DNA of 64,000 bases from Candidatus Microgenomates bacterium (GCA_003576945.1 QEVC01000002.1:5792-69791), one strand, 5' to 3'. Positions 6,340-51,788 are shown, counted from the stretch's first letter. Program-made: numbers and translations. Notes: a model not told the origin generated them from the letters alone.

Positions 6340-6344
6340 ATTTG

Positions 6345-6418
6345 AGATGCGAGAAGGATTCGAACCTCCGTCTTTTCGTTTTACAACGAAATGCCTGAAC
6401 CAACTCGGCTATCGCATC
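6345..6418 (-). tRNA. atypical tRNA-like gene (GUA anticodon = Tyr-like, short variable arm, 8-nt anticodon loop or 6-bp stem)
   Basis: Reverse complement gives a perfect 7-bp acceptor stem (GATGCGA/TCGCATC) and T-arm GGAGG-TTCGAAT-CCTTC. The anticodon arm is an 18-nt perfect hairpin TTTCGTTGTAAAACGAAA, one nt longer than canonical. No encoded CCA. Confidence 0.6.
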
Positions 6419-18233: not shown

Positions 18234-19559
18234 ATGACACTAAAAAATCAAGATAAAACAATATTCAACGCAATCGAAAAAGAAAAAAAGCGCCAGTTCG
18301 AAGGACTAGAACTGATCCCCAGTGAAAACTATGTTAGTGAGGCAGTACTCGAAGCCATGGGGAGTATCTTAACCAACAAATACTCCGAAGGGTTTGTAGC
18401 TCATCGCTACTACGGCGGCAACATTCATATCGACGAAATCGAGAATGAGGCCGTCCAGCGCGCCAAGGCTCTCTTTGGCGTCGCGCACGTCAATGTCCAA
18501 CCCTATTCTGGCAGTCCCGCCAACTTTGCAGTCTATCACGCTCTCCTAAACCCTGGCGACGCAGTGTCGGGGATGAACCTCTTCGACGGCGGCCACCTCA
18601 CCCATGGCTGGAAAGTCTCGGCTACTGCCAGGTATTTTGAGTCTCACCCCTACCACGTCCTCCCCGAGGGGATCGTCGACTATGATGAGCTAGAGCAGAT
18701 TGCTAAAGAGCACAAACCCAAACTTATCTGGTGTGGCGCCACCGCCTACCCAAGAGTTATCGAATGGGCCAAGTTTGCGAAAATTGCAGATTCTATCGGT
18801 GCCTACCTCGTGGCCGATATCTCCCATATCTCAGGTCTTGTGGCAGCCGGAGTGCACGAGAGTCCGGTCCCCTACGTCCACGTCATAACCACCACTACTC
18901 ACAAAACCCTGCGTGGTCCCCGCGGAGCGATGATCATGGTCACCAAAAAAGGACTAGAAAAAGATCCGGAGATTAGTAGCAAGATCGACAAAGCAATCTT
19001 CCCTGGCTTGCAGGGTGGCCCCCACAATCACACGACCGCCGCCATCGCCGTGGCGCTCCAAGAAGCCTCAACCCCAGAGTTTAAGGAGTACGCCAAACAG
19101 ATCGTCAAAAACACCAAAACACTAGAAGCAGAGTTTAAAAAATCTGGGATCAACATGGTCTCAGCTGGGAGCGATAACCACCTTTTACTACTAGACTTAA
19201 GCAGCAATGGCAGCCTCGGCTCCCAGCTCGAATATGCTATGGATGTCGCTCACATGACCGCTAACAAAAATACTATTCCTGGTGAGCCCAGTTCCCCCTA
19301 CTACCCCTCCGGTCTACGCCTCGGTACCCCAGCCCTTACTACCCGTGGTTTTCAAGAAAAAGACATGGTCAAAGTCGCAGACTGGATCACCCGCGTTATC
19401 AGACATATCGAAAAAGATGTACTACCCAAAGAACAGTCGGAACGCGCAGCCTTTATCAAAGCCTTCAAAGCCAAAGCCGCTCAGGACCCATTCTTAAAAG
19501 CTATTGGTCAGGAGATCAAAGCTTACACCAAGGATTTTCCCATTCCAGGAACAAAATAG
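18234..19559 (+). CDS. glyA: serine hydroxymethyltransferase
   Basis: 'LELIPSENYVSEAVLEAMGSILTNKYSEG'. Divergent from the thyA operon. Confidence 0.9.
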   Translation: MTLKNQDKTIFNAIEKEKKRQFEGLELIPSENYVSEAVLEAMGSILTNKYSEGFVAHRYYGGNIHIDEIENEAVQRAKALFGVAHVNVQPYSGSPANFAVYHALLNPGDAVSGMNLFDGGHLTHGWKVSATARYFESHPYHVLPEGIVDYDELEQIAKEHKPKLIWCGATAYPRVIEWAKFAKIADSIGAYLVADISHISGLVAAGVHESPVPYVHVITTTTHKTLRGPRGAMIMVTKKGLEKDPEISSKIDKAIFPGLQGGPHNHTTAAIAVALQEASTPEFKEYAKQIVKNTKTLEAEFKKSGINMVSAGSDNHLLLLDLSSNGSLGSQLEYAMDVAHMTANKNTIPGEPSSPYYPSGLRLGTPALTTRGFQEKDMVKVADWITRVIRHIEKDVLPKEQSERAAFIKAFKAKAAQDPFLKAIGQEIKAYTKDFPIPGTK

Positions 19560-19572
19560 GATTTCCTTACAT

Positions 19573-19611
19573 TTGACATATGCCTTACGTTTTGATAATG
19601 TAAGGCATATG
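19573..19611 (+). promoter_or_regulatory. promoter (TTGACA...GATAAT) overlapped by a perfect 12-bp inverted repeat operator (catatgccttac / gtaaggcatatg)
   Basis: TTGACA 19573-19578, GATAAT 19594-19599. IR arms at 19577-19588 and 19600-19611. The ATG at 19609 lies in the right arm, so the mRNA is probably leaderless. Confidence 0.55.
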
Positions 19612-19896
19612 CAGACATCTTACACAGCTACGGTTACCAGCAAAGGTCAACTTACAATACCTAGCGCCTTTAGACGTGCCTCAAAAATCAAGGCTGGACA
19701 TAAAGTTACGATCTCAGTCCACCCAACCAAAAAACATCACTACACCCTCGCCATTTCTGACAAAGTACCCAGGATTTCTCTTGATCAGGCTTTTGGGGCA
19801 CTACATAAACTAGGGATAAAATATGTACCCATAGAAATAGTTCGTGAGATCGCAGGCAAAAAACTAGGCAAAAAGTATGCTCCTATTAGACGCTAA
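19609..19896 (+). CDS. AbrB/MazE/SpoVT-family antitoxin (VapB-like)
   Basis: 'TVTSKGQLTIPSAFRRASKIKAGHKVTI' swapped-hairpin motif. Overlaps the PIN gene by 20 nt. Confidence 0.7.
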   Translation: MQTSYTATVTSKGQLTIPSAFRRASKIKAGHKVTISVHPTKKHHYTLAISDKVPRISLDQAFGALHKLGIKYVPIEIVREIAGKKLGKKYAPIRR

Positions 19897-20239
19897 CATT
19901 TACCTCCGCTATATCCTCAACGACAACACGTCTCAAGCCAAAAAGTCTCAGGATTTTATCAAAAATAATGAGTTTTACACCGACCCTACTATCATCGCCG
20001 AGGTGATATGGGTATTTACCTCGTATTACAGAGCAAAAAAGGAGTCATTTGTCCCTGCACTCCTCGCGATAGTTGAACAAAAAAACAACAAGTCATCTTC
20101 AAAAAAAATAATTATTCAAGCGCTCGAATACTACTATACTCACGACTTTTCATATATCGACAGTTACTTGTACTGTTTGGCAAATACAAAAAATTTATCT
20201 CGCGCCACTTTTGACAAAAAACTCTCAAAAACAATTTAG
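19877..20239 (+). CDS. PIN-domain toxin (VapC-like)
   Basis: 'LLDANIYLRYIL' with the N-terminal acidic residue. 120 aa, directly downstream of the antitoxin. Confidence 0.65.
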   Translation: MLLLDANIYLRYILNDNTSQAKKSQDFIKNNEFYTDPTIIAEVIWVFTSYYRAKKESFVPALLAIVEQKNNKSSSKKIIIQALEYYYTHDFSYIDSYLYCLANTKNLSRATFDKKLSKTI

Positions 20240-24465: not shown

Positions 24466-27400
24466 TCAATCTCTCTTCATCATTGCTAATACTAGCGTGG
24501 TTCCAAGCAAAACAAAACCTAAATACTGCAATAATTGCGGCCAGTAAAAAATAATCACAATTCCGTTCCCCTCATTATTCATAATTCCTGATTCATTATT
24601 CACAACAAACCCATTTGCCCACCCATCCACTTTCAGATGTCTTAAACTTGCTACATGATACTTGATACTTGATACATTCAACCCCACCCATCCTTCATCA
24701 TACCCTTGACTCAGCCTGATAAGCCCATCACCTCGCACTCCCAACCCATACAACCAAGTCCCCGTCTTTTTTACATGTGTGATCCTAAGGTCTGATCTTG
24801 TAGGTTGCAAATCATTATCATAACCTACGAGGTCAGACCTTATAGGTACCAGCTTTGCCCTCACGATCTTCTCAATGGGTGCGTATCTAACCTCTACTTT
24901 ATCTACCCTATTCTCCGCATACTGCCCAAAACTGCGCGTCTCGATATTGAGGCTGTAGTGTCCATCCCAATCCCAAGGTAGTAGCGAGAATGTCTGATCA
25001 AACTTGCCCCTGTCCATCAGATATTCGATATCATTCCGTTCACTACCTGTATTGTAAAGAAAGAATTTGAGACTCCTACCAGCTTTATTTTCTCCCATTA
25101 CTCTCATTAGATGTGGTACACGGGTAAACGGCCCGCCCATGACTACGTAGTCACATACTGCACCTCTCCCGTCTGCCATATAGGTCGATCTTTCTTTCTC
25201 AGCGCTACCCCGCTTCAATACGTCACAATTTCCGATACTCCCCTGCCCTTGCCGGCCAAAGTCATAGATAAAGGCTTCTCCCATTATTTCTATACTTAAT
25301 TCATCATTCAAAATACTAAATACCTGTTCTCTCCTATATTCCTCCCATTCCTCTCCCTCACTCACTCTAGCGTAGAAATAGCTCTCCCCCTCTTTAGGCT
25401 TTTCCTCTCCCAAAAATCTCGGACCCTTTTCTCCGTTTATATAATATGCTGGCAACGCTTCATTATTAACAAAATCTACTCGAACGATCTCTCCCACCCC
25501 CCACCCCGGTATCACCAGCTCCCGTGATCCAAGGTCTGATCTTGTAGCGTTTACTCCTACGAGGTCAGACCTTAAAGTTATTCCTTTGTCTCCATACTCT
25601 ATATTTTTTATTTCCTCCCGCATCAGCTGCGCAAACGGATAAACTACTGTCCCCTGCGATTCAAGATCTGATCTTGTAGGTTGCAAGTCTTTCTCAAAAC
25701 CTACGAGGTCAGACCTTCCAGGTTGTTCCACATATGTTCCCATCTCCGCATAAATCACATCCTTTCTCGTTTTCAAAGTATCTCCCTCCACCCACATATA
25801 GCTCTCCGGCACCGTGATCCCAAGGTCTGATCTTGTAGGGTTTACTCCTACGAGGTCAGACCTTACAGGAATTTTCCAAACACTCAAAAAGTTCTCATTA
25901 AACACTCTCTCCCACCCTAGCTCTTGTGCCAGCTCTTTTGTCTCCTCTATTCGCAAAATATCTTTGTCCTGCCCCGGCGCAATCACGCTCTCATCTAGTA
26001 GCACATATCGCACGTCATACTTCTGCAAAACTTTTTGTACTTGCCCACTGCACCCTGCACCCTGCGCTCCAAGGTCTGATCTTGTAGGGTTTACTCCTAC
26101 GAGGTCAGGCCTTACAGGACAAGCATAAATTGCAGTCGCAAACTCGTTATAAAACCCCTCGTTATACGGACTCCACGCATAAAATGCCTTGTCTAGAATT
26201 GGCATATTTATCCCTTGCCATACAAACCCACTCCCCCTGTATCCCCACTCATTCAGCTCCCATCCCCAAAAATCCTGTTGCGGTAGTTGTAGCACTCTCC
26301 CCGATTCCACACTATCCATAAATCGAAACAACTCTTGATATTCACTCGGTAACTCTACCCGCAATTTATCGTAAAGCAACTCGCCACGAAAAACTGGAAA
26401 GCTCCACATAATCACCACTCCCACCAATCCAGCAGTGATTCCAAATCTAACCACCCCCCACTTCATCCATCCTAAAACCATCGTCAGTCCATATCCCATC
26501 ATCACAGCGAGACTCATCGCATAAACTAGTGAAAATTTCGTAAAAGCAAATCGGAATATCGCGTCATAATACGGCACATACTCCCTTAGTGTCCACCCCA
26601 CACTCGATACTATGGGGATTCTCAGTCCCAGGTTACACAAAGCGAACAACCACACTACTCCTATCGCCGCCACCCTCCACTCTCTCTTCCACATCGCCAT
26701 GACCCATCCCAACAAACCAGTTCCCACCACTCCCCATCCTATATAAAAAATCCACGCCTGCCCCCACCACTCTATCCACTGTGGCATCTGCAACCCAAAC
26801 TTTCCATCTCCTACATAATCTTCAAACGCTAGTGAGAATCCCTCCATCGCCACCACACTCCGAATGTCACCATATTCGGCGTTGCGCAGCACCACCTCAC
26901 TATTAGATAGTTGGCTCGATTTCGAGGCATTTATCCCTGCCGCACTCGTCATCGCCGAATAAATGTATGGCAGTCCCCAAAAAGCATTCACGGCAAATAG
27001 CACTACTACCACATTTCGCACTCGCTTCCACCCCACCCTCCAGTGTTTCATCCAATAGCTAACAATCAAAGTAAAAATGGTGAGACCGTACACAATAAAA
27101 ATGGTGGGCACGTGTGCTTGTGGGATCGCCAAAAAGTTAATGATCAGGAGTCGCCACAACTTCTTTCGCTCTGGTGCGTCAAAATAAGTCAGTAGTGCCC
27201 ATACTCCCCACGGCAGTGCCGCAAAGTGCATGACAAATAGCTCTAGCGGCTGATAAAACATCTGCACTGTATAGGGGTTCAGCATATAAAACAGTGCCGT
27301 AACTATTGCCACTCCCTGCCTCACTCTCTCCTGCTTACGCAGGATATACATGCTGAGAACATACATCCCCACGCCACCCATTAGGTGCATGAGTAGCACA

Positions 27401-27678
27401 TAAGCGTAACGAACATAGTTAGTAGGTAGTACGAGCGACAACAGCCACGCATACCCCACATGCACCAGGTTCGCCGCGTGCGCCATGGCATCCGTCATCC
27501 CTAGCCCCCGGTATTCTTGCCACACCGATGATAAATCACGCCACAAATGTGTCGAAAATGCCAGTTCTGGCTGTGTACTATCCCAGCCGATTAGCCACGT
27601 CCCAGTGCGGACATTCGCCCACACTATTCCCACTTCAACGAGAACTAATAAAAATACTCCCCACCACCGCTTGAGCAT
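24466..27678 (-). CDS. large polytopic membrane glycosyltransferase-like protein (GT-C/YfhO/ArnT-like N-terminus, soluble C-terminus) carrying five in-frame palindromic repeat units
   Basis: 1070 aa. About 14 predicted TM helices in the N-terminal ~430 aa. C-terminal part contains five copies of 'RSDLVG(xx)..PTRSDL'. Adjacent GT2 gene. Confidence 0.6.
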   Translation of the reverse strand: MLKRWWGVFLLVLVEVGIVWANVRTGTWLIGWDSTQPELAFSTHLWRDLSSVWQEYRGLGMTDAMAHAANLVHVGYAWLLSLVLPTNYVRYAYVLLMHLMGGVGMYVLSMYILRKQERVRQGVAIVTALFYMLNPYTVQMFYQPLELFVMHFAALPWGVWALLTYFDAPERKKLWRLLIINFLAIPQAHVPTIFIVYGLTIFTLIVSYWMKHWRVGWKRVRNVVVVLFAVNAFWGLPYIYSAMTSAAGINASKSSQLSNSEVVLRNAEYGDIRSVVAMEGFSLAFEDYVGDGKFGLQMPQWIEWWGQAWIFYIGWGVVGTGLLGWVMAMWKREWRVAAIGVVWLFALCNLGLRIPIVSSVGWTLREYVPYYDAIFRFAFTKFSLVYAMSLAVMMGYGLTMVLGWMKWGVVRFGITAGLVGVVIMWSFPVFRGELLYDKLRVELPSEYQELFRFMDSVESGRVLQLPQQDFWGWELNEWGYRGSGFVWQGINMPILDKAFYAWSPYNEGFYNEFATAIYACPVRPDLVGVNPTRSDLGAQGAGCSGQVQKVLQKYDVRYVLLDESVIAPGQDKDILRIEETKELAQELGWERVFNENFLSVWKIPVRSDLVGVNPTRSDLGITVPESYMWVEGDTLKTRKDVIYAEMGTYVEQPGRSDLVGFEKDLQPTRSDLESQGTVVYPFAQLMREEIKNIEYGDKGITLRSDLVGVNATRSDLGSRELVIPGWGVGEIVRVDFVNNEALPAYYINGEKGPRFLGEEKPKEGESYFYARVSEGEEWEEYRREQVFSILNDELSIEIMGEAFIYDFGRQGQGSIGNCDVLKRGSAEKERSTYMADGRGAVCDYVVMGGPFTRVPHLMRVMGENKAGRSLKFFLYNTGSERNDIEYLMDRGKFDQTFSLLPWDWDGHYSLNIETRSFGQYAENRVDKVEVRYAPIEKIVRAKLVPIRSDLVGYDNDLQPTRSDLRITHVKKTGTWLYGLGVRGDGLIRLSQGYDEGWVGLNVSSIKYHVASLRHLKVDGWANGFVVNNESGIMNNEGNGIVIIFYWPQLLQYLGFVLLGTTLVLAMMKRD
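24787..26113. repeat. five palindromic hairpin units (arms aggtctgatcttgtagg / cctacgaggtcagacct; spacers 7 or 19 nt) inside the 24466-27678 ORF
   Basis: Units at 24787-24842, 25531-25573, 25653-25708, 25822-25865, 26071-26113. Arms form a 17-bp stem with G-U pairs as RNA. All unit lengths keep the frame. Confidence 0.85.
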
Positions 27679-28684: not shown

Positions 28685-29296
28685 CTAAGGCGCCACGCGG
28701 CGATCAAAGCGGACACGGAGCAAACCGTTGGCGATGAGATCGTCAACAGAAACAAAGCTGAAATAGCTTGTGTCTTGCATCCGTTGAGACATATGTGCCT
28801 GCATTTGTCGCTGAACTTCAGCAAACAAACACGAAGACTCATAGTCCCATCCGCGCCCTGCGCCGTTGACCACGTCGACCGAAAGTCCAGTCGGGATGAA
28901 GGTAGTAATCTCCTTCTTTCCCCAACCAGAAACCTTCTGGCCTCCGATGGTAACAGTTTCAGGCACGCCGCCAGGAAACCAGACATCGAGAACGATGCCA
29001 GCAGAGTCATTCGAAGCCGTGACTTCGTATGTCTCGCCAGCGCCATTGCTCGGTGCCCAAGGACCGAGGTCCCGGGCTTGACCGCAATAAGCGGAGTTGG
29101 CGGGCTGGGCGGGATTGTCATTCGCGACTGGGGCCTCTGCGGTGGCCTCGGGAGCGGGTACAGTCGCGGGCGTGTCGGACGTATCCAGGCTAACCCCATT
29201 GGGGCCAGCCGAAAACGTGCACGCCAGGGTTGCGGTTGCGAGGACCAGAACGGTCAACGCAATGAACAGGGGGGGTTTGGAGGTGTAGGGGGACAT
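28685..29296 (-). CDS. GC-rich lipoprotein (signal peptide + lipobox LAC), probably horizontally acquired
   Basis: 'MSPYTSKPPLFIALTVLVLATATLACTFS'. Local GC is about 60% against ~42% elsewhere. Overlapping plus-strand ORFs judged spurious. Confidence 0.55.
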   Translation of the reverse strand: MSPYTSKPPLFIALTVLVLATATLACTFSAGPNGVSLDTSDTPATVPAPEATAEAPVANDNPAQPANSAYCGQARDLGPWAPSNGAGETYEVTASNDSAGIVLDVWFPGGVPETVTIGGQKVSGWGKKEITTFIPTGLSVDVVNGAGRGWDYESSCLFAEVQRQMQAHMSQRMQDTSYFSFVSVDDLIANGLLRVRFDRRVAP

Positions 29297-29576
29297 TTTT
29301 TAGGCTTCCTTTCAAGAGCCTAACCTGCATAGAAATTTTCTACACAAATAAGGCTCCTGAGGTGTAACCTACCCTCTACTCGAATCCATCTTTACCCTTC
29401 CGTTGCCCATCCCATCCTTGCAGATGGTTGCGGCGCCGGAGTTTTTTGTTCTCCCGATTTTCATCGGGGAACCCGTATGCCTTGTTAAAGAACTAGCCCG
29501 CCACATTTTGCCGTGAGGCAATATGGGCTGGGCTGCTCTCATCCCAAACTATTACTCGCAACGAGTAGGTTTGAGT

Positions 29577-29677
29577 CTCGAGCTCCTGCCTCTATTTCTA
29601 GTAGCAGGTAGCTGCCTACTGTTACCAATAGACAAATACCTAATACTTATCTCTTATTCACTATAGGATATCACACT
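29577..29677 (+). repeat. copy A of a ~100-bp direct-repeat module (tcgagctcctgcc...ctagtagcaggtagctgcctactgttaccaatagacaaatacctaatac..cactataggatatcacact)
   Basis: About 95% identical to 30407-30506. Ends at the ATG of the MNT gene and is promoter-like. Confidence 0.8.
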
Positions 29678-30022
29678 ATGTCAAATTATTTATGTTATAC
29701 TTGGGGCATGAAGACCAATCCCTTGAGTAAATACCAAGACAAGATCAGCGAGCTGGCACAAAAGCACCACATCTCTTATCTTGCCCTCTTTGGCTCTCAC
29801 GCCAGAGGCGAAGCTAAGCAAGATAGTGACATAGATCTTCTAGTCGATTTTAAGCGCACTCCCGATCTAATCGAACTTTATGATGCCGAACAAGATTATG
29901 CCCGATTACTCAAAAAAGACCTTGATTTTGTAACAGTCGGCGGGCTTAATAAATATATTAAACCTTATATCCTACCAGACTTAATTACACTCTATGGCAC
30001 AAGACCCACAAGTATTTCTTAA
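29678..30022 (+). CDS. nucleotidyltransferase (MNT/MntA-like antitoxin)
   Basis: 'LALFGSHARGEAKQDSDIDLLVDF' GSx10DxD NTase motif. Confidence 0.8.
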   Translation: MSNYLCYTWGMKTNPLSKYQDKISELAQKHHISYLALFGSHARGEAKQDSDIDLLVDFKRTPDLIELYDAEQDYARLLKKDLDFVTVGGLNKYIKPYILPDLITLYGTRPTSIS

Positions 30023-30332
30023 ACAAATTCGTGATTACTGTGACAAAGTAATTGCTCACACAAAAGACATGTCGCTTGCCGATTTCAAGAGAAAAGAAAT
30101 TGTACAACTTGGTGTCATCAAACTCCTCGAAATGATCGGCGAAGCATGTAACAAACTAGAAAATAATTTTCGTGCCACTCATCCAGAAATCCCTTGGCGA
30201 CCCATTATTGGGATGCGCAATCGTACCGTCCACGAATATTGGGACATCAATCTCCCCATCGTGTGGAAAACTGCCATCATCAGAGTGCCAGAGCTACGAG
30301 ATTTGATTGCGCAACTCATTGACCCAGAGTGA
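29994..30332 (+). CDS. HEPN-domain toxin (HepT/DUF86)
   Basis: 'GMRNRTVHEY' Rx4-6H HEPN motif. Overlaps the MNT gene by 29 nt. Confidence 0.8.
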   Translation: MAQDPQVFLKQIRDYCDKVIAHTKDMSLADFKRKEIVQLGVIKLLEMIGEACNKLENNFRATHPEIPWRPIIGMRNRTVHEYWDINLPIVWKTAIIRVPELRDLIAQLIDPE

Positions 30333-30406
30333 TATCCTACATTTATTTATTTGTTAAAGAACTGCTCAATTTTTCGGGTTTTACACGCAGTGTGCATACC
30401 CAAAAT

Positions 30407-30506
30407 CTCGAGCTCCTGCTTCTACCTCTAGTAGCAGGTAGCTGCCTACTGTTACCAATAGACAAATACCTAATACCCATCTCTTATTCACTATAGGATA
30501 TCACAC
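30407..30506 (+). repeat. copy B of the ~100-bp module
   Basis: Followed by a short terminator-bounded transcript unit (30507-30636) instead of the MNT-HEPN pair. Confidence 0.8.
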
Positions 30507-30597
30507 TGTGTCAAGCCGTAGGTCCTGAGCGGAGTCGAAGGGATTATAGAGTTATCTGACTCTCCCCTCTTTTGTATTAAACCAACCTCACTAAAGC

Positions 30598-30636
30598 CCC
30601 CTGCAACAATCGAAAGATTCTTTGCAGGGTTTTTTA
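30598..30636 (+). terminator. intrinsic terminator (ccctgcaa...ttgcaggg + T6)
   Basis: 8-bp inverted repeat with a 13-nt loop followed by tttttt. Would end a ~125-nt transcript starting at the copy B promoter. Confidence 0.5.
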
Positions 30637-30955
30637 AGCTATGCTCGATTTATGAGCAAATCATTGCATACGACTATCTTGATAGACGACAGCAACTTCT
30701 TTTTCAAGCTCAAGGGTCTCAAAATCAAAAATCTCCTCAACTTCGACTTTGGCAAATTTCCCGAGTTTCTCGCAGGTGACAAACCAGTCTTCCAAGTTAT
30801 GCTTTAACCCAAAACACCCAGCACTCCACTCTCTTAACCAAAAGTGACATCCTACAATTTATTTAGTTTTTAAAGAACACCTGCTAGTAGCAGGTACACG
30901 TCTTCAAGGTCGGACCTTGAAGGCACATATCCACCACTGTGATATACTCAAATTT

Positions 30956-31207
30956 ATGAAAACTAAACCTAGCGCAACCACCAGCGGATTTCACGCTTTA
31001 GTCTGGCAAGAGGACGATCTTTTTGTTGCCAAAACTATTGAAATCGAGCTAGCTAGCCAAGGAAAAACCAAGAAAGAAGCTCTCAAAAACCTCGAAGAGG
31101 CCATCGAGCTCTACTTCCAGGACGAACCCAAGACAATCTTCAACTCAACCGCTCTACATAACCTCACATTCGAACAGATTAATCCTCGCTATCCCAACTA
31201 TGCCTAA
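30956..31207 (+). CDS. hicB: HicB-family antitoxin
   Basis: 'FHALVWQEDDLFVAKTIEIELASQGKTKKEALKNLEEAIELYFQD' UPF0150/HicB fold. Start trimmed from 30917. Confidence 0.7.
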   Translation: MKTKPSATTSGFHALVWQEDDLFVAKTIEIELASQGKTKKEALKNLEEAIELYFQDEPKTIFNSTALHNLTFEQINPRYPNYA

Positions 31208-31421
31208 GCGCTATACGGCCAAACAAGTTCTCAAAGCATTGCATCGACTCGGATTTTCAGAAGTTACCAAGAAAGGTAGTCATCTTAAAGTCAGGGGTAT
31301 TCGCGACGGCAAGCTGCAAACAGCCATCATCCCCATGCACCGGGAGGTCGCTATTGGCACGCTTTCCTCGATTCTTCGCCAAGCCAATGTGACCAAGCAA
31401 GAACTAGAAGACAATATTTAG
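31200..31421 (+). CDS. hicA: HicA-family mRNA interferase toxin
   Basis: 'KQVLKALHRLGFSEVTKKGSHLKV...IPMHREVAIGTLSSILRQANV'. Overlaps hicB by 8 nt. Confidence 0.75.
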   Translation: MPKRYTAKQVLKALHRLGFSEVTKKGSHLKVRGIRDGKLQTAIIPMHREVAIGTLSSILRQANVTKQELEDNI

Positions 31422-31618
31422 TTTTCATTTTTTAATGTGCCCCTAAGGTTAACCCTAGGAATCTGGACTACGAACCTGCCCCGGTCGTAATTCAGATTTC
31501 CAAGGTCAAAAAGACCTATAGCTATTTTGTTTTAAGGTACGACCCACTTCTTAGTGGTTTTGCCCTAAGTCGAATGTGTGGGTGGCTCAGGGCAAAGCCA
31601 AAAAGGTAATGGGAAAGT

Positions 31619-31885
31619 TTATCCTAGAATGTAGGATTTGTAGGTGAGCTTATATAGCCCAGTCGCAACGACAGCGGCTAGAGCAAAGCTACCTAAGAGC
31701 TTGTAAAGGTCGTTACTAGCGCCAGTCTCCACCACTTCGTGAGTAACAGTAGTGGTAGTAGTCGTGGTCTCACCACAAACTTCGCCACCACCATAAACAG
31801 ACGAACAGGTTCGTACTGTCTCAGCCGAGACAGATGTTGCGGTAAGAGCGAGTAATGTGGTTGCGAGCACGATTGCTTTTTTCAT
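31619..31885 (-). CDS. small secreted Thr-rich protein with C-terminal membrane anchor (possible sortase substrate)
   Basis: Signal peptide, T7 run, 'VVETGAS' then a hydrophobic tail. The sortase gene is 1.2 kb away. Confidence 0.35.
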   Translation of the reverse strand: MKKAIVLATTLLALTATSVSAETVRTCSSVYGGGEVCGETTTTTTTVTHEVVETGASNDLYKLLGSFALAAVVATGLYKLTYKSYILG

Positions 31886-31911: not shown

Positions 31912-33066
31912 TCATTTTGTCAACCCTATAAGCCTATCTAGATAATTATTTTCATTAATCACCATACCAGTATTTTTCAATGGGAAGATGTCATTTATTT
32001 CCCCAGAATTTACTTTAATTTCTACTGTCGTATAATTTTTCTTATAATCCTCAATCACTAGATCAATTTCTCGGCCACCGTACTCCCGATAAAAATAGTA
32101 ATTAAGATTTAACCCATACAGCCTTCTCAATTTCTCAAGCTCTACCAAGATAAAGTTTTCAAATACACCTCCCCTATCTGGTCTAAGCTCTAGATCACGA
32201 AAATCCTTAACGAGCATATTACGAACTCCCAGGTCATAAAAATAGAGTTTTCGATTTTCTGAAACTGCGCGCCTAGCATTTGTTTTGAAAGATGGTAGTG
32301 GTATCAAAATATAGTTCTTAATAAAAATTTCAATATAATTAGCGACAGTCGTGTGATAGGCACCTAGCGAATTGGCTATTTCACGCACCGACACCTCACT
32401 CCCGATCTGAAGCGCTATTTTGGTTAAAATATCTTTAGCAAGTTTTTGATTCTTCAATTCATATATGTCAATTACATCCTTTAACACATAAGCATCGAGT
32501 ATTCGCTGCAATTTTTCGGTTCTTTCATTCTCTGACTTTCCTCGACTGGTATAAATCTCAGGATAATTGCCCCATATCTGCGCAAACTTGCTCAACTTCA
32601 AGTCAAAAGTACTTCTTTCAGATTGTTTTGGTTTCTCATTATCCAAAATCTCGACTACCGACAGCGGTAAACAATATATTTCACGGTATCTCCCTGCCAA
32701 AGAATCAAACTCTCTGCCGCTTTTTTGCCTTAGCTCAGAGCTCCCCGTCGCAATAACCTTAACCTTATATTCATCATGGAGTATTTTTAACATTACCGTT
32801 GCTTCTGGATAATTTTGAATTTCATCGATCAATACTACTTTATTATCTGCAACTATTCTCTCTAAAACCTCAGCTCTTGGTGCAAATTTGTCTCTATCAG
32901 ACACCAAATCAAAGTTGTATTTTGTGACACGTAACTTCTTTGCCAAATTTTCAATTAAAGTCGTTTTACCCGAACGTCTTGGACCCCAGATAAACAAAAT
33001 AGAGTCGTCGTCGCTCTTCAAGTACGCTTCTATATCATTCTCAATCACTCTCTTAATTAGCTTCAT
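31912..33066 (-). CDS. AAA-family ATPase with DUF4143-like C-terminal domain
   Basis: Walker A 'GPRRSGKTTLI', Walker B 'VVLIDEIQ'. Confidence 0.7.
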   Translation of the reverse strand: MKLIKRVIENDIEAYLKSDDDSILFIWGPRRSGKTTLIENLAKKLRVTKYNFDLVSDRDKFAPRAEVLERIVADNKVVLIDEIQNYPEATVMLKILHDEYKVKVIATGSSELRQKSGREFDSLAGRYREIYCLPLSVVEILDNEKPKQSERSTFDLKLSKFAQIWGNYPEIYTSRGKSENERTEKLQRILDAYVLKDVIDIYELKNQKLAKDILTKIALQIGSEVSVREIANSLGAYHTTVANYIEIFIKNYILIPLPSFKTNARRAVSENRKLYFYDLGVRNMLVKDFRDLELRPDRGGVFENFILVELEKLRRLYGLNLNYYFYREYGGREIDLVIEDYKKNYTTVEIKVNSGEINDIFPLKNTGMVINENNYLDRLIGLTK

Positions 33067-50816: not shown

Positions 50817-51788
50817 ATGTCGCCTCTTATCTTTTTTGGCTCCGATCGTTTTAGTGCCGTCGTACTAAGTGAGCTAATCAGTCAAAATCACGCTCCAACA
50901 CTAGTAGTCACCGACCAACCAAAACCTGCCCGCAATACTTCGCATAGCGATGCAGGCGGGCCCAAAGGAAAGCAAGGTATTCTTAGTCCCAACGAAGTCG
51001 AAACTCTCGCCAAAACGCAAGACATAAAAATATTATATTATCAAGACAACAACGAAGAATTGATCAAATATATACAACATTCAAAATACAACATACAAAA
51101 TACCAATCTAACTGGCCTCTCTGCCTCTTTCCCCCACCTCTTCCCCGCCGACTTTATCAGTTTGTTTAGCGGTCATCTCTATAATCTCCACCCCTCCCTC
51201 CTCCCACAGTACCGCAATGTTGCACCAGGTCCTTACGCCATCATCATGGGCGATAAAGAGACCGGGATCACCCTCCAGCATATCGACGAGCGTATCGATA
51301 CTGGCAGTATCATCGCCCAGCAGTCAGCTCCCATTCATCCCTCCGATACCTCTACCACCCTCCTCAACCGACTTTTTACCAAGGGTGCTGAAATCTTTAT
51401 TCAGCATTTATCGGACGGATTTACGGATTTACGGATTAACAGATTTACGAATCAACTAATCTTTACCCGCAAGCTCACCCGCCAGTCTGGCTACATCGAG
51501 TGGGACATCGTCCAAAAGCTACTTCAAGGTCGGACCTTGAAGGTGGGTGACACAGTCAACCCCCTAATCCATCTCCGTCTCACCCATCATCCAGAGAGAA
51601 CAGAGAACATCCTCCCCGACCTAATCCGTGGCCTCAACCCATATGAGCGAGTCTGGACAGTAGCAAAAACCAAAAAAGGAGAACTCCAGCTCACACTATC
51701 CCTCTCACCCAACGGCGAAATTATGGTCCTAATCCCTGGCAAGCCAAAACCAATTCTCTATACTGATTTTGTAAAGTATTATCTCTAA
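50817..51788 (+). CDS. fmt: methionyl-tRNA formyltransferase
   Basis: 'NLHPSLLPQYRNVAPGPYAIIMGDKETGITLQHIDERIDTGSII'. The inter-domain linker carries the ACGGATTT tandem repeat (51412-51452) and the 21-bp palindrome (51522-51542). Confidence 0.8.
   Translation: MSPLIFFGSDRFSAVVLSELISQNHAPTLVVTDQPKPARNTSHSDAGGPKGKQGILSPNEVETLAKTQDIKILYYQDNNEELIKYIQHSKYNIQNTNLTGLSASFPHLFPADFISLFSGHLYNLHPSLLPQYRNVAPGPYAIIMGDKETGITLQHIDERIDTGSIIAQQSAPIHPSDTSTTLLNRLFTKGAEIFIQHLSDGFTDLRINRFTNQLIFTRKLTRQSGYIEWDIVQKLLQGRTLKVGDTVNPLIHLRLTHHPERTENILPDLIRGLNPYERVWTVAKTKKGELQLTLSLSPNGEIMVLIPGKPKPILYTDFVKYYL

What the first reader, a model, noticed from the sequence alone, without database searches (positions are those of the whole stretch)
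29486..31421. Repeat-delimited toxin-antitoxin cassette array with an sRNA-like unit in one slot
A ~100-bp promoter-like module occurs twice at 95% identity (29577-29677, 30407-30506). A third truncated copy (30881-30896) is followed by the 21-bp palindrome. Copy A drives MNT(MntA)-HEPN(HepT). Copy B is followed by a ~125-nt non-coding segment closed by a clean intrinsic terminator (30598-30636). The truncated copy precedes hicB-hicA. A second ~30-bp repeat (atcctaca(a)tttattta(t/g)tt(t)ttaaagaac at 30334-30362 and 30849-30878) marks the 3' side of slots 1 and 2. The architecture is a modular array in which a common 5' module and 3' tag bracket interchangeable cargo. The unit after copy B would be a small RNA occupying a TA slot, possibly an RNA antitoxin or regulatory RNA.
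Basis: partly seen in the sequence, partly recalled or inferred. Interest (0 to 1): 0.6.

Follow-up and report, generated by a model that had tools for sequence, protein, structure and literature searches.

The report
Decayed nuclease-gene array reused by toxin-antitoxin pairs
The repeats are real, but they are the shared flanks of tandem copies of an NYN-nuclease gene unit at a variable spot in a candidate-phyla (Microgenomates-like) genome: one unit now carries MNT-HepT, one holds a dead NYN gene (the supposed small RNA is its leader), and one carries HicBA.

Summary
There is a 109-nt repeat (29576-29684 and 30406-30514, 94%), a truncated third copy, a ~30-nt 3' tag, and a boundary word TTNTTAAAGAAC found only here in 64 kb.

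Related metagenomic contigs hold 0 to 4 different units at the same chromosomal site: NYN nucleases, MNT-HepT, HicBA, a Zn-ribbon ORF and a 100-aa ORF. All share these flanks, so cargo does vary.

The flanks are the 5' and 3' ends of paralogous NYN-gene units. One relative (L042) has three intact NYN units. Its NYN2 unit aligns with window 30556-30866 (80-86% identity) apart from a 322-nt internal deletion.

Slot 2 is therefore an NYN pseudogene, not an sRNA slot. The "terminator" (30597-30635) is a leader hairpin found upstream of NYN genes in 11 units from eight distinct contig sets, several named as different candidate-phyla groups. Its promoter is degraded in the window. Tag 2 is the last NYN codons, and the tag after hepT is a fossil of the same sequence.

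Module B lacks the -10 box that follows module A. No recombinase gene was detected in the window.

The cassette-exchange mechanism is unproven. I infer homologous recombination through the shared flanks.

The parts
29470..29493 (+). Left chromosomal junction plus boundary word 0 (AACCCGTATGCC-TTGTTAAAGAAC)
   Evidence: The same ~23-26 nt (AACCCGTATGCCTTGTTAAAG..) recur, identical or nearly so, at the same chromosomal position in L012/L013, L019, L022, L029, L038, L039, L040 and L042. This includes the two sites with no cargo.
29494..29575 (+). Two strong hairpins, unique to unit 1 (framework filler)
   Evidence: dG -36.9, z -5.35. There is no counterpart upstream of module B or in relatives.
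29576..29684 (+). Module A: hairpin GCTCCTGC..GCAGGTAGC (29581-29613) plus the conserved U motif CACTATAGGATATCACACTATGTCAA (29659-29684)
   Evidence: The U motif is conserved upstream of every MNT ortholog and upstream of NYN1 and NYN2 in L042.
29693..29701 (+). Extended -10 (TGTTATACT) of mntA-hepT, 6 nt before the ATG at 29708. A leaderless mRNA is predicted.
   Evidence: Conserved in all orthologs. The same layout ends exactly at the start codon of five other long ORFs in the window, besides mntA and hicB. It lies outside the 109-nt repeat.
29708..30022 (+). mntA (104 aa nucleotidyltransferase antitoxin)
   Evidence: Pfam Polbeta 4.4e-14. NCBIfam MntA 2e-13, below the curated cut-off. Contains GSHARGE..DSDIDLL.
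29994..30332 (+). hepT (112 aa HEPN RNase toxin). Its last ~11 codons are encoded by NYN-derived DNA read in another frame.
   Evidence: Pfam HepT-like 2.3e-25. Contains RNRTVH (Rx4H). The 3' end aligns with NYN 3' ends.
30319..30362 (+). D motif (inverted partner of U, 30319-30339), then the fossil NYN 3' end (tag 1) and boundary word 1 (30351-30362)
   Evidence: I1, I2, D4-D6.
30363..30514 (+). Framework 1 plus module B (30406-30514, with the U motif at 30489-30514). This is the native 5' flank of an NYN2-type unit.
   Evidence: In L042 the same U motif precedes the intact NYN2 leader.
30515..30541 (+). Window-specific segment of about 23-27 nt between the U motif and P1, resembling a REP-like palindrome fragment (CCGTAGG..CGAAGGG)
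   Evidence: It appears as a 23-nt gap in L042 in the pairwise alignment. Related hairpins are scattered in the relatives' arrays.
30556..30583 (+). Degraded promoter P1 of the NYN leader (CTGACT-16 nt-TAAACC; intact in L042 as TTGACT-16 nt-TGcTACACT)
   Evidence: Comparison with 10 other NYN leaders, most of which have good -35/-10 boxes.
30597..30635 (+). NYN leader hairpin (GAAA loop) plus T6.
   Evidence: Fold: dG -16.6, z -2.95. Eleven NYN genes carry such a hairpin; 8 of 9 consensus pairs show compensatory changes and TAA upstream is invariant.
30640..30651 (+). P2: -10-like TATGCT plus 6 nt before the NYN ATG
   Evidence: Aligned with TGCTATGCT + 6 nt + ATG in L042 NYN2.
30652..30866 (+). 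NYN pseudogene. Codons 1-~48 lie at 30652-30795. A frameshift and 322-nt deletion follow. The last 24 codons plus TAG lie at 30792-30866.
   Evidence: 71% identity over 49 aa to L042 NYN2 (2.9e-17). The C-terminal piece PSYALTQNTQHSTLLTKSDILQFI* matches the last 24 residues of NYN proteins. DNA alignment: 80% over 245 nt plus 86% over 64 nt.
30849..30878 (+). Tag 2: the last NYN codons (D I L Q F I stop) plus boundary word 2 (30867-30878)
30879..30934 (+). Truncated framework: 17-nt palindrome carrying GTAGCAGGTA, the 22-nt palindrome (30902-30923) and ATATCCAC
   Evidence: dG -25.2, z -4.99. The 22-mer has an identical copy at 51522-51543, so it is a dispersed element and not a hicBA-specific operator.
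30940..30948 (+). Extended -10 (TGATATACT) of hicBA, 7 nt before the ATG at 30956
   Evidence: L019 has the same layout upstream of its hicB.
30956..31207 (+). hicB-like antitoxin (83 aa, DUF7387)
   Evidence: Pfam 7.5e-9. The start is as called on the public contigs.
31200..31421 (+). hicA toxin (73 aa)
   Evidence: Pfam HicA_toxin 3.4e-13.
31428..31530 (+). Right-hand boundary word (TTTTTTAATGTGC), then the conserved right-end element (hairpin TCTGGACTACGA..TCGTAATTCAGA, ..GACCTATAGCTATTT)
   Evidence: It is homologous to the right end of the empty sites L038 and L040 and to the spacer before NYN3 in L015, L039 and L042, with compensatory stem changes.

Best explanation
The locus is a variable islet at a fixed chromosomal site, between a secreted-protein/glycosyltransferase block and an 88-aa gene plus sortase plus thymidylate kinase. 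The organism is a Microgenomates-like candidate-phyla bacterium.

Shown:
- The repeating scaffold is a tandem series of paralogous NYN (LabA-like PIN-type nuclease) gene units.
- A full unit runs in this order: boundary word (TTnTTAAAGAAC or TTTTnAATGTGC); a hairpin-rich framework containing GCAGGTA and TATCyAC; the U motif CACTATAGGATATCACnCTGTGTCAA; promoter P1; a short leader hairpin with a T-run; a leaderless-type -10 (P2); the NYN gene.
- The last NYN codons (..LLTKSDILQFI stop) form the 3' tag.
- In unit 1 of the window, the body from just after U to ~35 nt before the NYN stop has been replaced by a -10 box plus mntA-hepT. hepT now ends in NYN-derived sequence.
- Unit 2 keeps its NYN leader. 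Its P1 has lost the -10 and TG elements, and its NYN gene has a 322-nt frameshifting deletion.
- Unit 3 keeps only a stub of the framework and carries hicBA behind its own extended -10.
- A fourth NYN unit (NYN3 type) has been deleted, leaving its upstream element at 31441-31530.

Inferred:
- Each surviving cargo is an independent, probably leaderless, transcription unit.
- The U motif, which sits where a -35 box would be, is probably an operator for the MNT or MNT-HepT complex.
- Cargo differences between genomes arise from rare illegitimate replacements. These then spread, or are lost, by homologous recombination through the conserved flanks and direct repeats, without a dedicated recombinase.
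- Small palindromic (REP-like) elements pepper the frameworks and explain the variable hairpins.
For: Repeats and genes:
-.

Orthologous MNT-HepT units (68-91% identity):
- All carry the U motif, an extended -10, 5-6 nt and then the ATG, and the same tag after hepT.

Same chromosomal site, different content:
- L012/L013 (MNT-HepT), L016-18 (100-aa family ORF, then MNT-HepT), L015, L019, L029, L038/L040 (empty) and L039.
- L042-46 carry NYN1 | 109-aa ORF | NYN2 | NYN3.

Slot 2 is an NYN pseudogene:
- blastp and blastx to NYN N- and C-termini.
- 71% identity over 49 aa to L042 NYN2.
- Nucleotide alignment including the U motif, P1, hairpin and P2, with a single large gap.

Tags are NYN 3' ends:
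-.

The leader hairpin is general:
- Eleven units from eight distinct contig sets, several named as different groups (Parcubacteria, Shapirobacteria, WWE3, Gottesmanbacteria), and 8 of 9 pairs covary.

Leaderless-type promoters are the norm here:
- The TGnTAnnnT + 5-8 nt + ATG pattern ends exactly at 7 long-ORF starts.

No recombinase:
- Pfam scans of ~58 ORFs and tblastn with the relatives' Y1 transposase.

Precedent for MNT binding palindromes at its own promoter:
- PMC4621449.

Dispersed palindromes:
-.
Against: - (1) The boundary word and framework are present at the left junction even in the two empty sites. The 'NYN flank' origin does not by itself explain this.
- (2) The U/D inverted repeat (18-19 of 21) brackets every MNT-HepT unit examined. 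It is better conserved there than in the NYN units. This hints at selection or a site-specific process that I cannot identify.
- (3) Modules A and B are 94% alike, while orthologous modules are 82-85% alike. This needs recent duplication or gene conversion.
- (4) L014 carries the MNT-HepT unit with its framework in a different gene neighbourhood, so some form of mobility exists.
- (5) All promoters, leaderless starts and operator roles are predicted from sequence. There are no transcript data.
- (6) About 15 window ORFs have no Pfam hit, so an unrecognised recombinase cannot be excluded.
Confidence: 0.72

Rival explanations
1. One reading: copy B drives a ~125-nt small RNA (30507-30636), ended by an intrinsic terminator, that occupies a TA slot as an RNA antitoxin or regulator.
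For: A convincing hairpin plus T6 exists. In intact NYN units a good promoter (P1) sits about 15-20 nt upstream of the equivalent hairpin. A short (~45-55 nt) hairpin transcript could therefore really be made in relatives.
Against: - Module B lacks the -10 that follows module A.
- The only promoter-like site before the hairpin is P1, at 30556-30583. It has lost the TG and the -10 T. Any RNA would be ~50 nt, not 125 nt.
- The 130-nt segment is not unusually structured (z -0.86).
- The segment is the leader of a dead NYN gene.
- In L053 the hairpin lies 4 nt before the NYN ATG with no second promoter, which fits a cis-acting leader.
- No Rfam family matches, and there are no tandem repeats as in ToxI.
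Confidence: 0.06
2. An integron-like or other site-specific cassette system. The boundary word and hairpin framework act as recombination sites, and an unseen recombinase inserts and excises units.
For: - Units all face the same way.
- A short conserved word sits at every unit edge and at the chromosomal junction, even in empty sites.
- Spacers are hairpin-rich, with structure more conserved than sequence.
- Content varies from 0 to 4 units at one site.
- L014 shows a unit in another gene context.
Against: - No tyrosine or serine recombinase or transposase domain was found in 64 kb, or in the called genes and precomputed Pfam listings of the relatives' loci. The only exception is a RAYT-like Y1 gene 3-5 kb away in some of them.
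- Spacers do not have attC geometry. The U/D inverted repeat belongs to the NYN or MNT units, not to every spacer. The 109-aa-to-NYN2 spacer has U but no D, and the NYN2-to-NYN3 spacer has D but no U.
- There are no RYYYAAC/GTTRRRY ends.
- Every unit has its own promoter.
- Breakpoints of replaced cargo differ: after U for MNT, after TATCCACCAC for hicB, and before the third framework hairpin (the one just upstream of the TATCyAC word) for the Zn-ribbon unit.
- The flanks are plainly NYN gene ends.
Confidence: 0.1
3. REP/RAYT-type palindromic elements are the main driver. The modules are clusters of mobile palindromes, and rearrangements follow from their insertion and recombination.
For: - An identical 22-nt palindrome occurs at 30902 and at 51522.
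- Five related 57-61-nt palindromes lie in frame inside ORF 24466-27678.
- REP-like hairpins are inserted at different framework positions in relatives, for example inside ACCCA^AAA in L042.
- A ~100-nt insertion splits the NYN1 3' end in L042.
- A RAYT-like Y1 gene is present in L015, L016, L042 and L047.
Against: - It explains the variable hairpins. It does not explain the conserved U motif, the leader, the tags or the gene replacements.
- There is no Y1 gene in the window.
- The relatives' Y1 protein scores below the NCBIfam RAYT cut-off (37 vs 80 bits).
Confidence: 0.12

Closest known systems
Chromosomal hotspots between conserved flanking genes that hold different gene sets in different strains and exchange them by homologous recombination (Neisseria 'minimal mobile elements'; defence or TA islets). 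Cited from my own knowledge, not checked in a paper.
   Same: The position is fixed between conserved genes. Content ranges from nothing to four units across relatives. No recombinase is associated. The cargo is TA and candidate defence genes: PADLOC PDC-S09 for MNT, HEC-09/NYN for NYN, and PDC-S01 for the neighbouring DUF4143 ATPase. A DprA gene is present in the window.
   Different: Here the internal scaffold is itself repeated, as paralogous NYN unit flanks. Homology arms therefore exist inside the islet as well as at its edges, and cargo has been swapped inside the shell of an older gene.
Type VII MntA-HepT (MNT-HEPN) toxin-antitoxin modules, e.g. Shewanella oneidensis SO_3165/3166 (PMC4621449)
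   Same: Overlapping mntA-hepT genes, the GSx2RG..DxD and Rx4H motifs, and conserved palindrome-containing DNA abutting the promoter. The Shewanella MNT binds its own promoter.
   Different: The mRNA is predicted to be leaderless, whereas the Shewanella transcript starts 30 nt upstream. The operator-like motif is shared with NYN units and repeated in inverted form at the hepT 3' end. The hepT tail is encoded by NYN-derived DNA.
Integron cassette arrays and clusters of attC sites lacking an integrase (CALINs)
   Same: A co-oriented series of small units, often TA genes, separated by structured repeats.
   Different: There is no intI, no attC consensus or geometry, and each unit has its own promoter. 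The repeats are gene flanks.
Type III toxin-antitoxin loci (ToxIN): promoter, RNA antitoxin, terminator, nuclease gene
   Same: In intact NYN units the layout is a promoter, a short structured RNA ended by a T-run, then a nuclease gene.
   Different: There is a single hairpin and no tandem repeats. The nuclease is NYN/PIN-like, not ToxN. NYN genes with the same leader also sit singly among housekeeping genes. In the window both the promoter and the nuclease gene are dead.
Rickettsia palindromic elements (RPE) and REP/RAYT systems. Cited from my own knowledge.
   Same: Short dispersed palindromes, some inserted in frame in protein-coding genes.
   Different: The phylum is different and the sequence family unrelated. 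No RAYT gene was found in this window.

Membership tests
Integron / attC cassette array | Adjacent intI tyrosine recombinase | tested here: not met
   No Phage_integrase or other recombinase domain in ~58 ORFs across the 64-kb window. About 15 ORFs have no Pfam hit.
Integron / attC cassette array | attC sites: an imperfect palindrome per cassette with RYYYAAC...GTTRRRY ends | tested here: not met
   By inspection of the spacers. The ends are TTGAC..GTCAA, and only where an NYN or hepT end meets a U motif. Other spacers lack one arm. No attC covariance model was available.
Integron / attC cassette array | Mostly promoterless cassettes read from a common promoter (Pc) | tested here: not met
   Each unit has its own extended -10 placed 5-8 nt before its ATG. 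This is a sequence prediction only.
Type VII TA MntA-HepT | MNT nucleotidyltransferase with the GSx2RG...DxD motif, upstream of and overlapping a HEPN gene with Rx4-6H | tested here: met
   Pfam Polbeta 4.4e-14 and HepT-like 2.3e-25, both above their cut-offs. GSHARGE..DSDID and RNRTVH are in the translations. The genes overlap by 29 nt. The NCBIfam equivalog scores are below cut-off (50 and 41 vs 60 bits).
Type VII TA MntA-HepT | Toxicity of HepT and neutralisation by MntA-mediated AMPylation | not testable with these tools
   Needs experiment.
HicAB type II TA | HicA toxin domain next to a HicB-fold antitoxin | tested here: met
   HicA_toxin 3.4e-13 and DUF7387 (HicB-like) 7.5e-9, both above their cut-offs. 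The genes overlap by 8 nt.
Type III TA (ToxIN-like) | Tandem RNA antitoxin repeats upstream of the toxin gene, separated from it by a terminator | tested here: not met
   No tandem repeats in 29300-31650. There is a single hairpin.
Type III TA (ToxIN-like) | Intact endoribonuclease toxin gene downstream | tested here: not met
   The downstream gene is an NYN pseudogene with a 322-nt frameshifting deletion.
NYN / LabA-like (PF01936) gene | Full NYN domain | tested here: not met
   Only residues ~1-48 and the last 24 remain. Pfam finds nothing in the fragment. The intact ortholog L042 NYN2 matches PADLOC NYN/HEC-09, and L015 NYN matches Pfam NYN at 1.3e-17.
REP / RAYT system | Dispersed extragenic palindromes plus a RAYT (Y1) gene | tested here: inconclusive
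   Palindromes are dispersed. No Y1 gene is in the window. The relatives' Y1 protein scores 37 bits against a cut-off of 80 for REP_Tyr_transpos.
Known RNA families (Rfam 15) | A match at gathering score | tested here: not met
   Only five tRNAs in the window. Nothing credible in 29250-31650 at E up to 10. Nothing in eight related loci.

The most novel reading that the evidence does not exclude
The NYN units are more than decaying paralogs.

(a) The P1-hairpin transcript conserved upstream of NYN nuclease genes across candidate-phyla lineages may be a small RNA partner of the nuclease. That would make a new, type III-like RNA-nuclease module, or an autoregulatory leader cleaved by NYN.

(b) The boundary word, the U/D inverted repeats and the hairpin framework may be the sites of an undescribed cassette-exchange mechanism in these reduced genomes. 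One candidate enzyme is the RAYT-like Y1 protein seen near the arrays in several relatives.
Probability: 0.12. Interest if true: 0.75.

Novelty: new variant of a known kind. Interest (0 to 1): 0.4.

Why it matters
For the finding as written, the result is deflationary. The 'sRNA in a TA slot' is the leader and wreck of a nuclease gene.

The comparison nevertheless shows something useful. In a lineage with tiny genomes and no obvious mobile-element machinery at the site, one intergenic position holds anywhere from zero to four small defence or TA units. New cargo (MNT-HepT, HicBA) has been installed inside the shell of older NYN units, reusing their flanks and even their last codons. This is a concrete, datable example of how TA genes turn over.

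It also exposes a hairpin leader, conserved and covarying, upstream of NYN/LabA-like genes across several candidate-phyla groups. That protein family has no known bacterial function (PMC5499597) and the leader has no Rfam entry. This gives a testable handle on how these nucleases are regulated.

Tried and rejected
- Rfam at gathering score, and at E up to 10 on the locus and on eight related loci: nothing relevant. A weak lysM-TM7 hit (17.8 vs 61.5 bits) was dismissed as chance.
- Exact-protein look-ups of HepT and HicA returned only contigs 100% identical over the region they share with 29301-31650, bar one mismatch in two of them. These were useless for variation. They did show assemblies breaking inside module B.
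- The left-neighbour protein proved too divergent to use as a synteny probe (22-56% identity). I used the membrane-protein N-terminus instead.
- Nine of the 13 hits of the framework pattern in metagenomes were chance matches.
- The minus-strand ORF 30661-30795 (open up to 30858) was considered as a gene. It was rejected because it has no Pfam hit and the plus strand matches NYN in two frames.
- Searching the protein database with the 47-aa NYN fragment found only itself.
- I considered that hepT's end plus tag 2 was a HepT C-terminal remnant in slot 2. blastx then showed that it is the NYN C-terminus.
- I considered the 22-nt palindrome as a HicB operator. It has an identical copy inside another gene at 51522.
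- I considered CACTATAGG in the U motif as a phage T7-type promoter core. There is no supporting evidence, so it was dropped as coincidence.
- I considered that U and D are terminal inverted repeats of a mobile MNT-HepT element. D is NYN coding sequence, and L014's relocated copy includes more than the U-to-D span.
Full report
**1. Observation**

- The repeat finder gives a 109-nt direct repeat, 29576-29684 vs 30406-30514, at 94% identity. Its sub-words occur nowhere else in 64 kb, with 0 expected.
- A 13-nt piece (CTAGTAGCAGGTA) recurs at 30884-30896 inside a 17-nt palindrome. A perfect 22-nt palindrome follows at 30902-30923.
- The ~30-nt tag is present at 30334-30362 and 30849-30878.
- Its core word TTNTTAAAGAAC occurs three times in the window and only here (29482, 30351, 30867; 0.05 expected).
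- Pfam confirms MNT, HepT, a HicB-like DUF7387 protein and HicA.
The first is a 21-nt inverted repeat between the 3' end of each module and the 3' end of hepT (I1/I2). The second is coding remnants in slot 2.

**2. The module is not the promoter**

MNT homologs at 68-91% identity were fetched with their flanks. All share a motif directly upstream: CACTATAGGATATCACnCTGTGTCAA (called U below). After U come 7-8 nt, an extended -10 (TGyTATACT), 5-6 nt and the ATG.
- The same pattern (TGnTAnnnT, 5-8 nt, ATG) ends exactly at seven long-ORF start codons in the window, including mntA and hicB. Leaderless-type promoters therefore look like the norm in this genome. This is a sequence inference.
- In the window the -10 of mntA is at 29693-29701, outside the 109-nt repeat.
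- Copy B is followed by unrelated sequence, so copy B has no equivalent promoter.

**3. Slot 2 is a dead NYN nuclease gene with its native flanks**

- The plus-strand ORF 30652-30807 matches the N-terminus of NYN (LabA-like) proteins (45-59% identity to several).
- Immediately after it, in another frame, 30792-30866 encodes PSYALTQNTQHSTLLTKSDILQFI-stop. This matches the last 24 residues of NYN proteins up to their final residue.
- A relative (L042-L046) carries three intact NYN genes and a 109-aa ORF at the same chromosomal site.
- Its NYN2 is the ortholog of the window remnant: 71% identity over 49 aa, 2.9e-17.
- At DNA level, the stretch from P1 through the hairpin, a second -10 and codons 1-~49 aligns at 80% over 245 nt. 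A single gap follows; by length difference (537 vs 215 nt) 322 nt are missing from the window. Then 64 nt align at 86% through the stop and boundary word. The U motif aligns separately just upstream (96% over 27 nt).
- Module B, the 'non-coding segment', the 'terminator' and tag 2 are therefore the ordinary 5' and 3' flanks of an NYN2-type unit.
- In the window P1 reads CTGACT-16 nt-TAAACC, against TTGACT-16 nt-TGcTACACT in L042. It has lost the TG and the -10 T.
- The 130-nt segment proposed as an sRNA folds no better than shuffled sequence (z -0.86). Only the terminal hairpin stands out (z -2.95).

**4. The hairpin is a conserved NYN leader**

- Eleven NYN genes have a C-rich/G-rich hairpin with a T-run shortly upstream of the gene. 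Most are preceded at about 15-20 nt by a good promoter.
- The eleven come from L042 (three), L015, the window, a Gottesmanbacteria contig (L041), L047, a Parcubacteria-type contig (L048), Shapirobacteria (L050), WWE3 (L051) and L053.
- In the alignment, 8 of 9 stem pairs show compensatory changes, and a TAA upstream is invariant.
- In L053 the hairpin ends 4 nt before the ATG with no second promoter. This favours a cis-acting leader (attenuator or autoregulatory site) over a free-standing sRNA.
- Several of these NYN genes are single-copy among housekeeping genes.
- Rfam has no matching family.
- The function of bacterial LabA-like NYN proteins is unknown (PMC5499597). PADLOC lists relatives as candidate defence genes (HEC-09, NYN).

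**5. The tags are NYN 3' ends, and MNT-HepT sits inside an old NYN unit**

- Tag 2 is the codons D-I-L-Q-F-I-stop of the pseudogene plus the boundary word.
- The sequence after hepT, in the window and in every ortholog, is the same NYN 3' end.
- The similarity runs ~35 nt back into hepT. The last ~11 codons of hepT are therefore NYN-derived DNA read in another frame and stopped by an out-of-frame TGA.
- On the 5' side, MNT-HepT units keep the NYN-type framework and U motif, and lose P1, the hairpin and P2.
- The simplest history is replacement of the NYN body. The left breakpoint lies just after U. The right breakpoint lies inside the NYN 3' coding end.
- hicBA has a different left breakpoint, right after ..ATATCCACCAC. 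It is followed by the other boundary variant (TTTTTTAATGTGC, 31428-31440) and by an element that precedes NYN3 in relatives (31441-31530). A fourth unit has therefore been lost.

**6. Cargo does vary at one chromosomal site**

The conserved flanks are, on the left, a large membrane protein, a glycosyltransferase and a secreted protein, and on the right an 88-aa gene, sortase and thymidylate kinase. Between them the contigs hold the following:

| Contig(s) | Content at the site | Calls |
|---|---|---|
| L038, L040 | Nothing but framework | 50 |
| L039 | Zn-ribbon ORF | 50 |
| L012/L013 | MNT-HepT | 26, 33 |
| L016-L018 | 100-aa family ORF, then MNT-HepT | 29, 41 |
| L015 | MNT-HepT with an 83-nt deletion in hepT, Zn-ribbon ORF, NYN3 | 28, 30, 32 |
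| L019 | 100-aa ORF, then HicBA | 44 |
| L042 | NYN1, 109-aa ORF, NYN2, NYN3 | 68 |
| Window | MNT-HepT, NYN pseudogene, HicBA | see above |

- The same framework precedes MNT-HepT in L017 and hicB in L019.
- By similarity of the membrane protein, the nearest named genomes are Woesebacteria/Microgenomates-type Patescibacteria (47% identity at best).

**7. Mechanism of exchange**

- No integrase, recombinase or transposase domain appears in ~58 ORFs of the window, and there is no homolog of the relatives' Y1 protein.
- The spacers do not have attC geometry or consensus. Each unit has its own promoter. Cargo breakpoints differ between cargo types.
- I therefore infer rare illegitimate replacements. 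These spread, duplicate or are deleted by homologous recombination through the repeated flanks. Modules A and B, at 94%, are ready substrates. The window also encodes DprA.
- This step is inferred, not shown.
- Several observations do not fit neatly:
  - The boundary word and framework are present at empty sites.
  - The U/D inverted repeat is conserved at 18-19 of 21 around every MNT-HepT unit.
  - L014 has the unit in another gene context.
  - Modules A and B are more alike than orthologous modules are.

**8. Palindromes**

- The 22-nt palindrome upstream of hicB has an identical copy inside an fmt-like ORF at 51522-51543.
- Five related 57-61-nt palindromes lie in frame in the 1070-aa membrane-protein gene, translated as RSDLVG..PTRSDLG repeats.
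- Related hairpins occupy the same framework position in relatives. REP-like hairpins are inserted at various framework positions.
- These small elements account for the 'structure conserved, sequence variable' look of the spacers. They argue against the palindrome being a HicB operator.

**9. Function of what remains (inferred)**

- mntA-hepT and hicBA are intact, each with its own extended -10 and probably a leaderless mRNA.
- U lies where a -35 box would be. It may be an operator. MNT antitoxin binding to palindromes at its own promoter has precedent in Shewanella (PMC4621449).
- Transcription from hepT probably runs through module B to the hairpin at 30635.

**10. Verdict**

- The modular-array idea is supported by the comparative data.
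- The sRNA/RNA-antitoxin idea is not supported for this window.
- The array is best described as a decaying tandem set of NYN gene units re-used by TA cargo at a recombination-prone site.
- Novelty is moderate: a new variant of the known 'variable islet' theme, plus an undescribed leader motif for NYN genes.

**11. Limits**

- All relatives are metagenomic contigs.
- There are no expression data.
- Promoters, leaderless starts and operator roles are predictions from sequence.
- Only 64 kb of this genome was available.

Noticed in passing
window 24786-24847, 25521-25577, 25663-25723, 25812-25868, 26061-26117 (inside ORF 24466-27678, minus strand): Five copies of a 57-61-nt palindromic element (arms AAGGTCTGATCTTGTAGG / CCTACGAGGTCAGACCTT) lie in frame in the 1070-aa membrane-protein gene. 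They are translated as RSDLVG..PTRSDLG peptide repeats, reminiscent of Rickettsia palindromic elements.
   Followed up: partly
window 51522-51543 (inside fmt-like ORF 50817-51788, plus strand): An exact second copy of the 22-nt palindrome CTTCAAGGTCGGACCTTGAAGG found upstream of hicB. It is in frame within a coding region.
   Followed up: partly
window 31912-33066 (minus strand): An AAA_14 + DUF4143 ATPase (PADLOC candidate defence PDC-S01, 1.3e-83) sits between the 88-aa gene and sortase. It is absent from that position in L015, L016, L038 and L039, so it is a separate insertion next to the array.
   Followed up: partly
window 19504-20239 (plus strand): A second TA-like pair: a MazE/AbrB-type antitoxin ORF overlapping a PIN-domain ORF. 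None of the array's framework motifs lies near it.
   Followed up: no
window 6344-6418 (minus strand): ARAGORN calls a tRNA with an undetermined identity and a four-base anticodon (gtaa). Rfam scores it as a normal tRNA (58 bits).
   Followed up: no
L042 5043-7794; also L041, L047, L048, L050, L051, L053 just upstream of their NYN genes: A conserved layout of promoter, ~45-55-nt hairpin with a T-run, then an NYN/LabA-like gene across several candidate-phyla groups. The stem covaries and TAA is invariant. There is no Rfam family, so this is a possible new cis-regulatory RNA motif.
   Followed up: partly
L042 5580-5680: A ~100-nt insertion with its own inverted repeats splits the NYN1 3' end between ATCCTAC and AATTTATTTAG and changes the protein's C-terminus. 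It looks like a MITE or REP insertion.
   Followed up: no
L015 5935-6600, L016 3354-4022, L042 11894-12559, L047 918-1589: A 221-223-aa Y1_Tnp protein lies a few kb from the arrays or NYN genes in several relatives but not in the window. The L015 copy's best NCBIfam match is REP-associated tyrosine transposase, below the cut-off.
   Followed up: partly
L015 372-628: hepT in this relative lacks 83 nt relative to the window, and no hepT gene is called there. The TA module is probably decaying in that genome too.
   Followed up: no
Logan contigs L004-L010 (start at window 30447): Many independent short-read assemblies of this organism break inside module B. This is an assembly artefact of the 109-nt repeat and is worth knowing when reading MAGs of this lineage.
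   Followed up: yes
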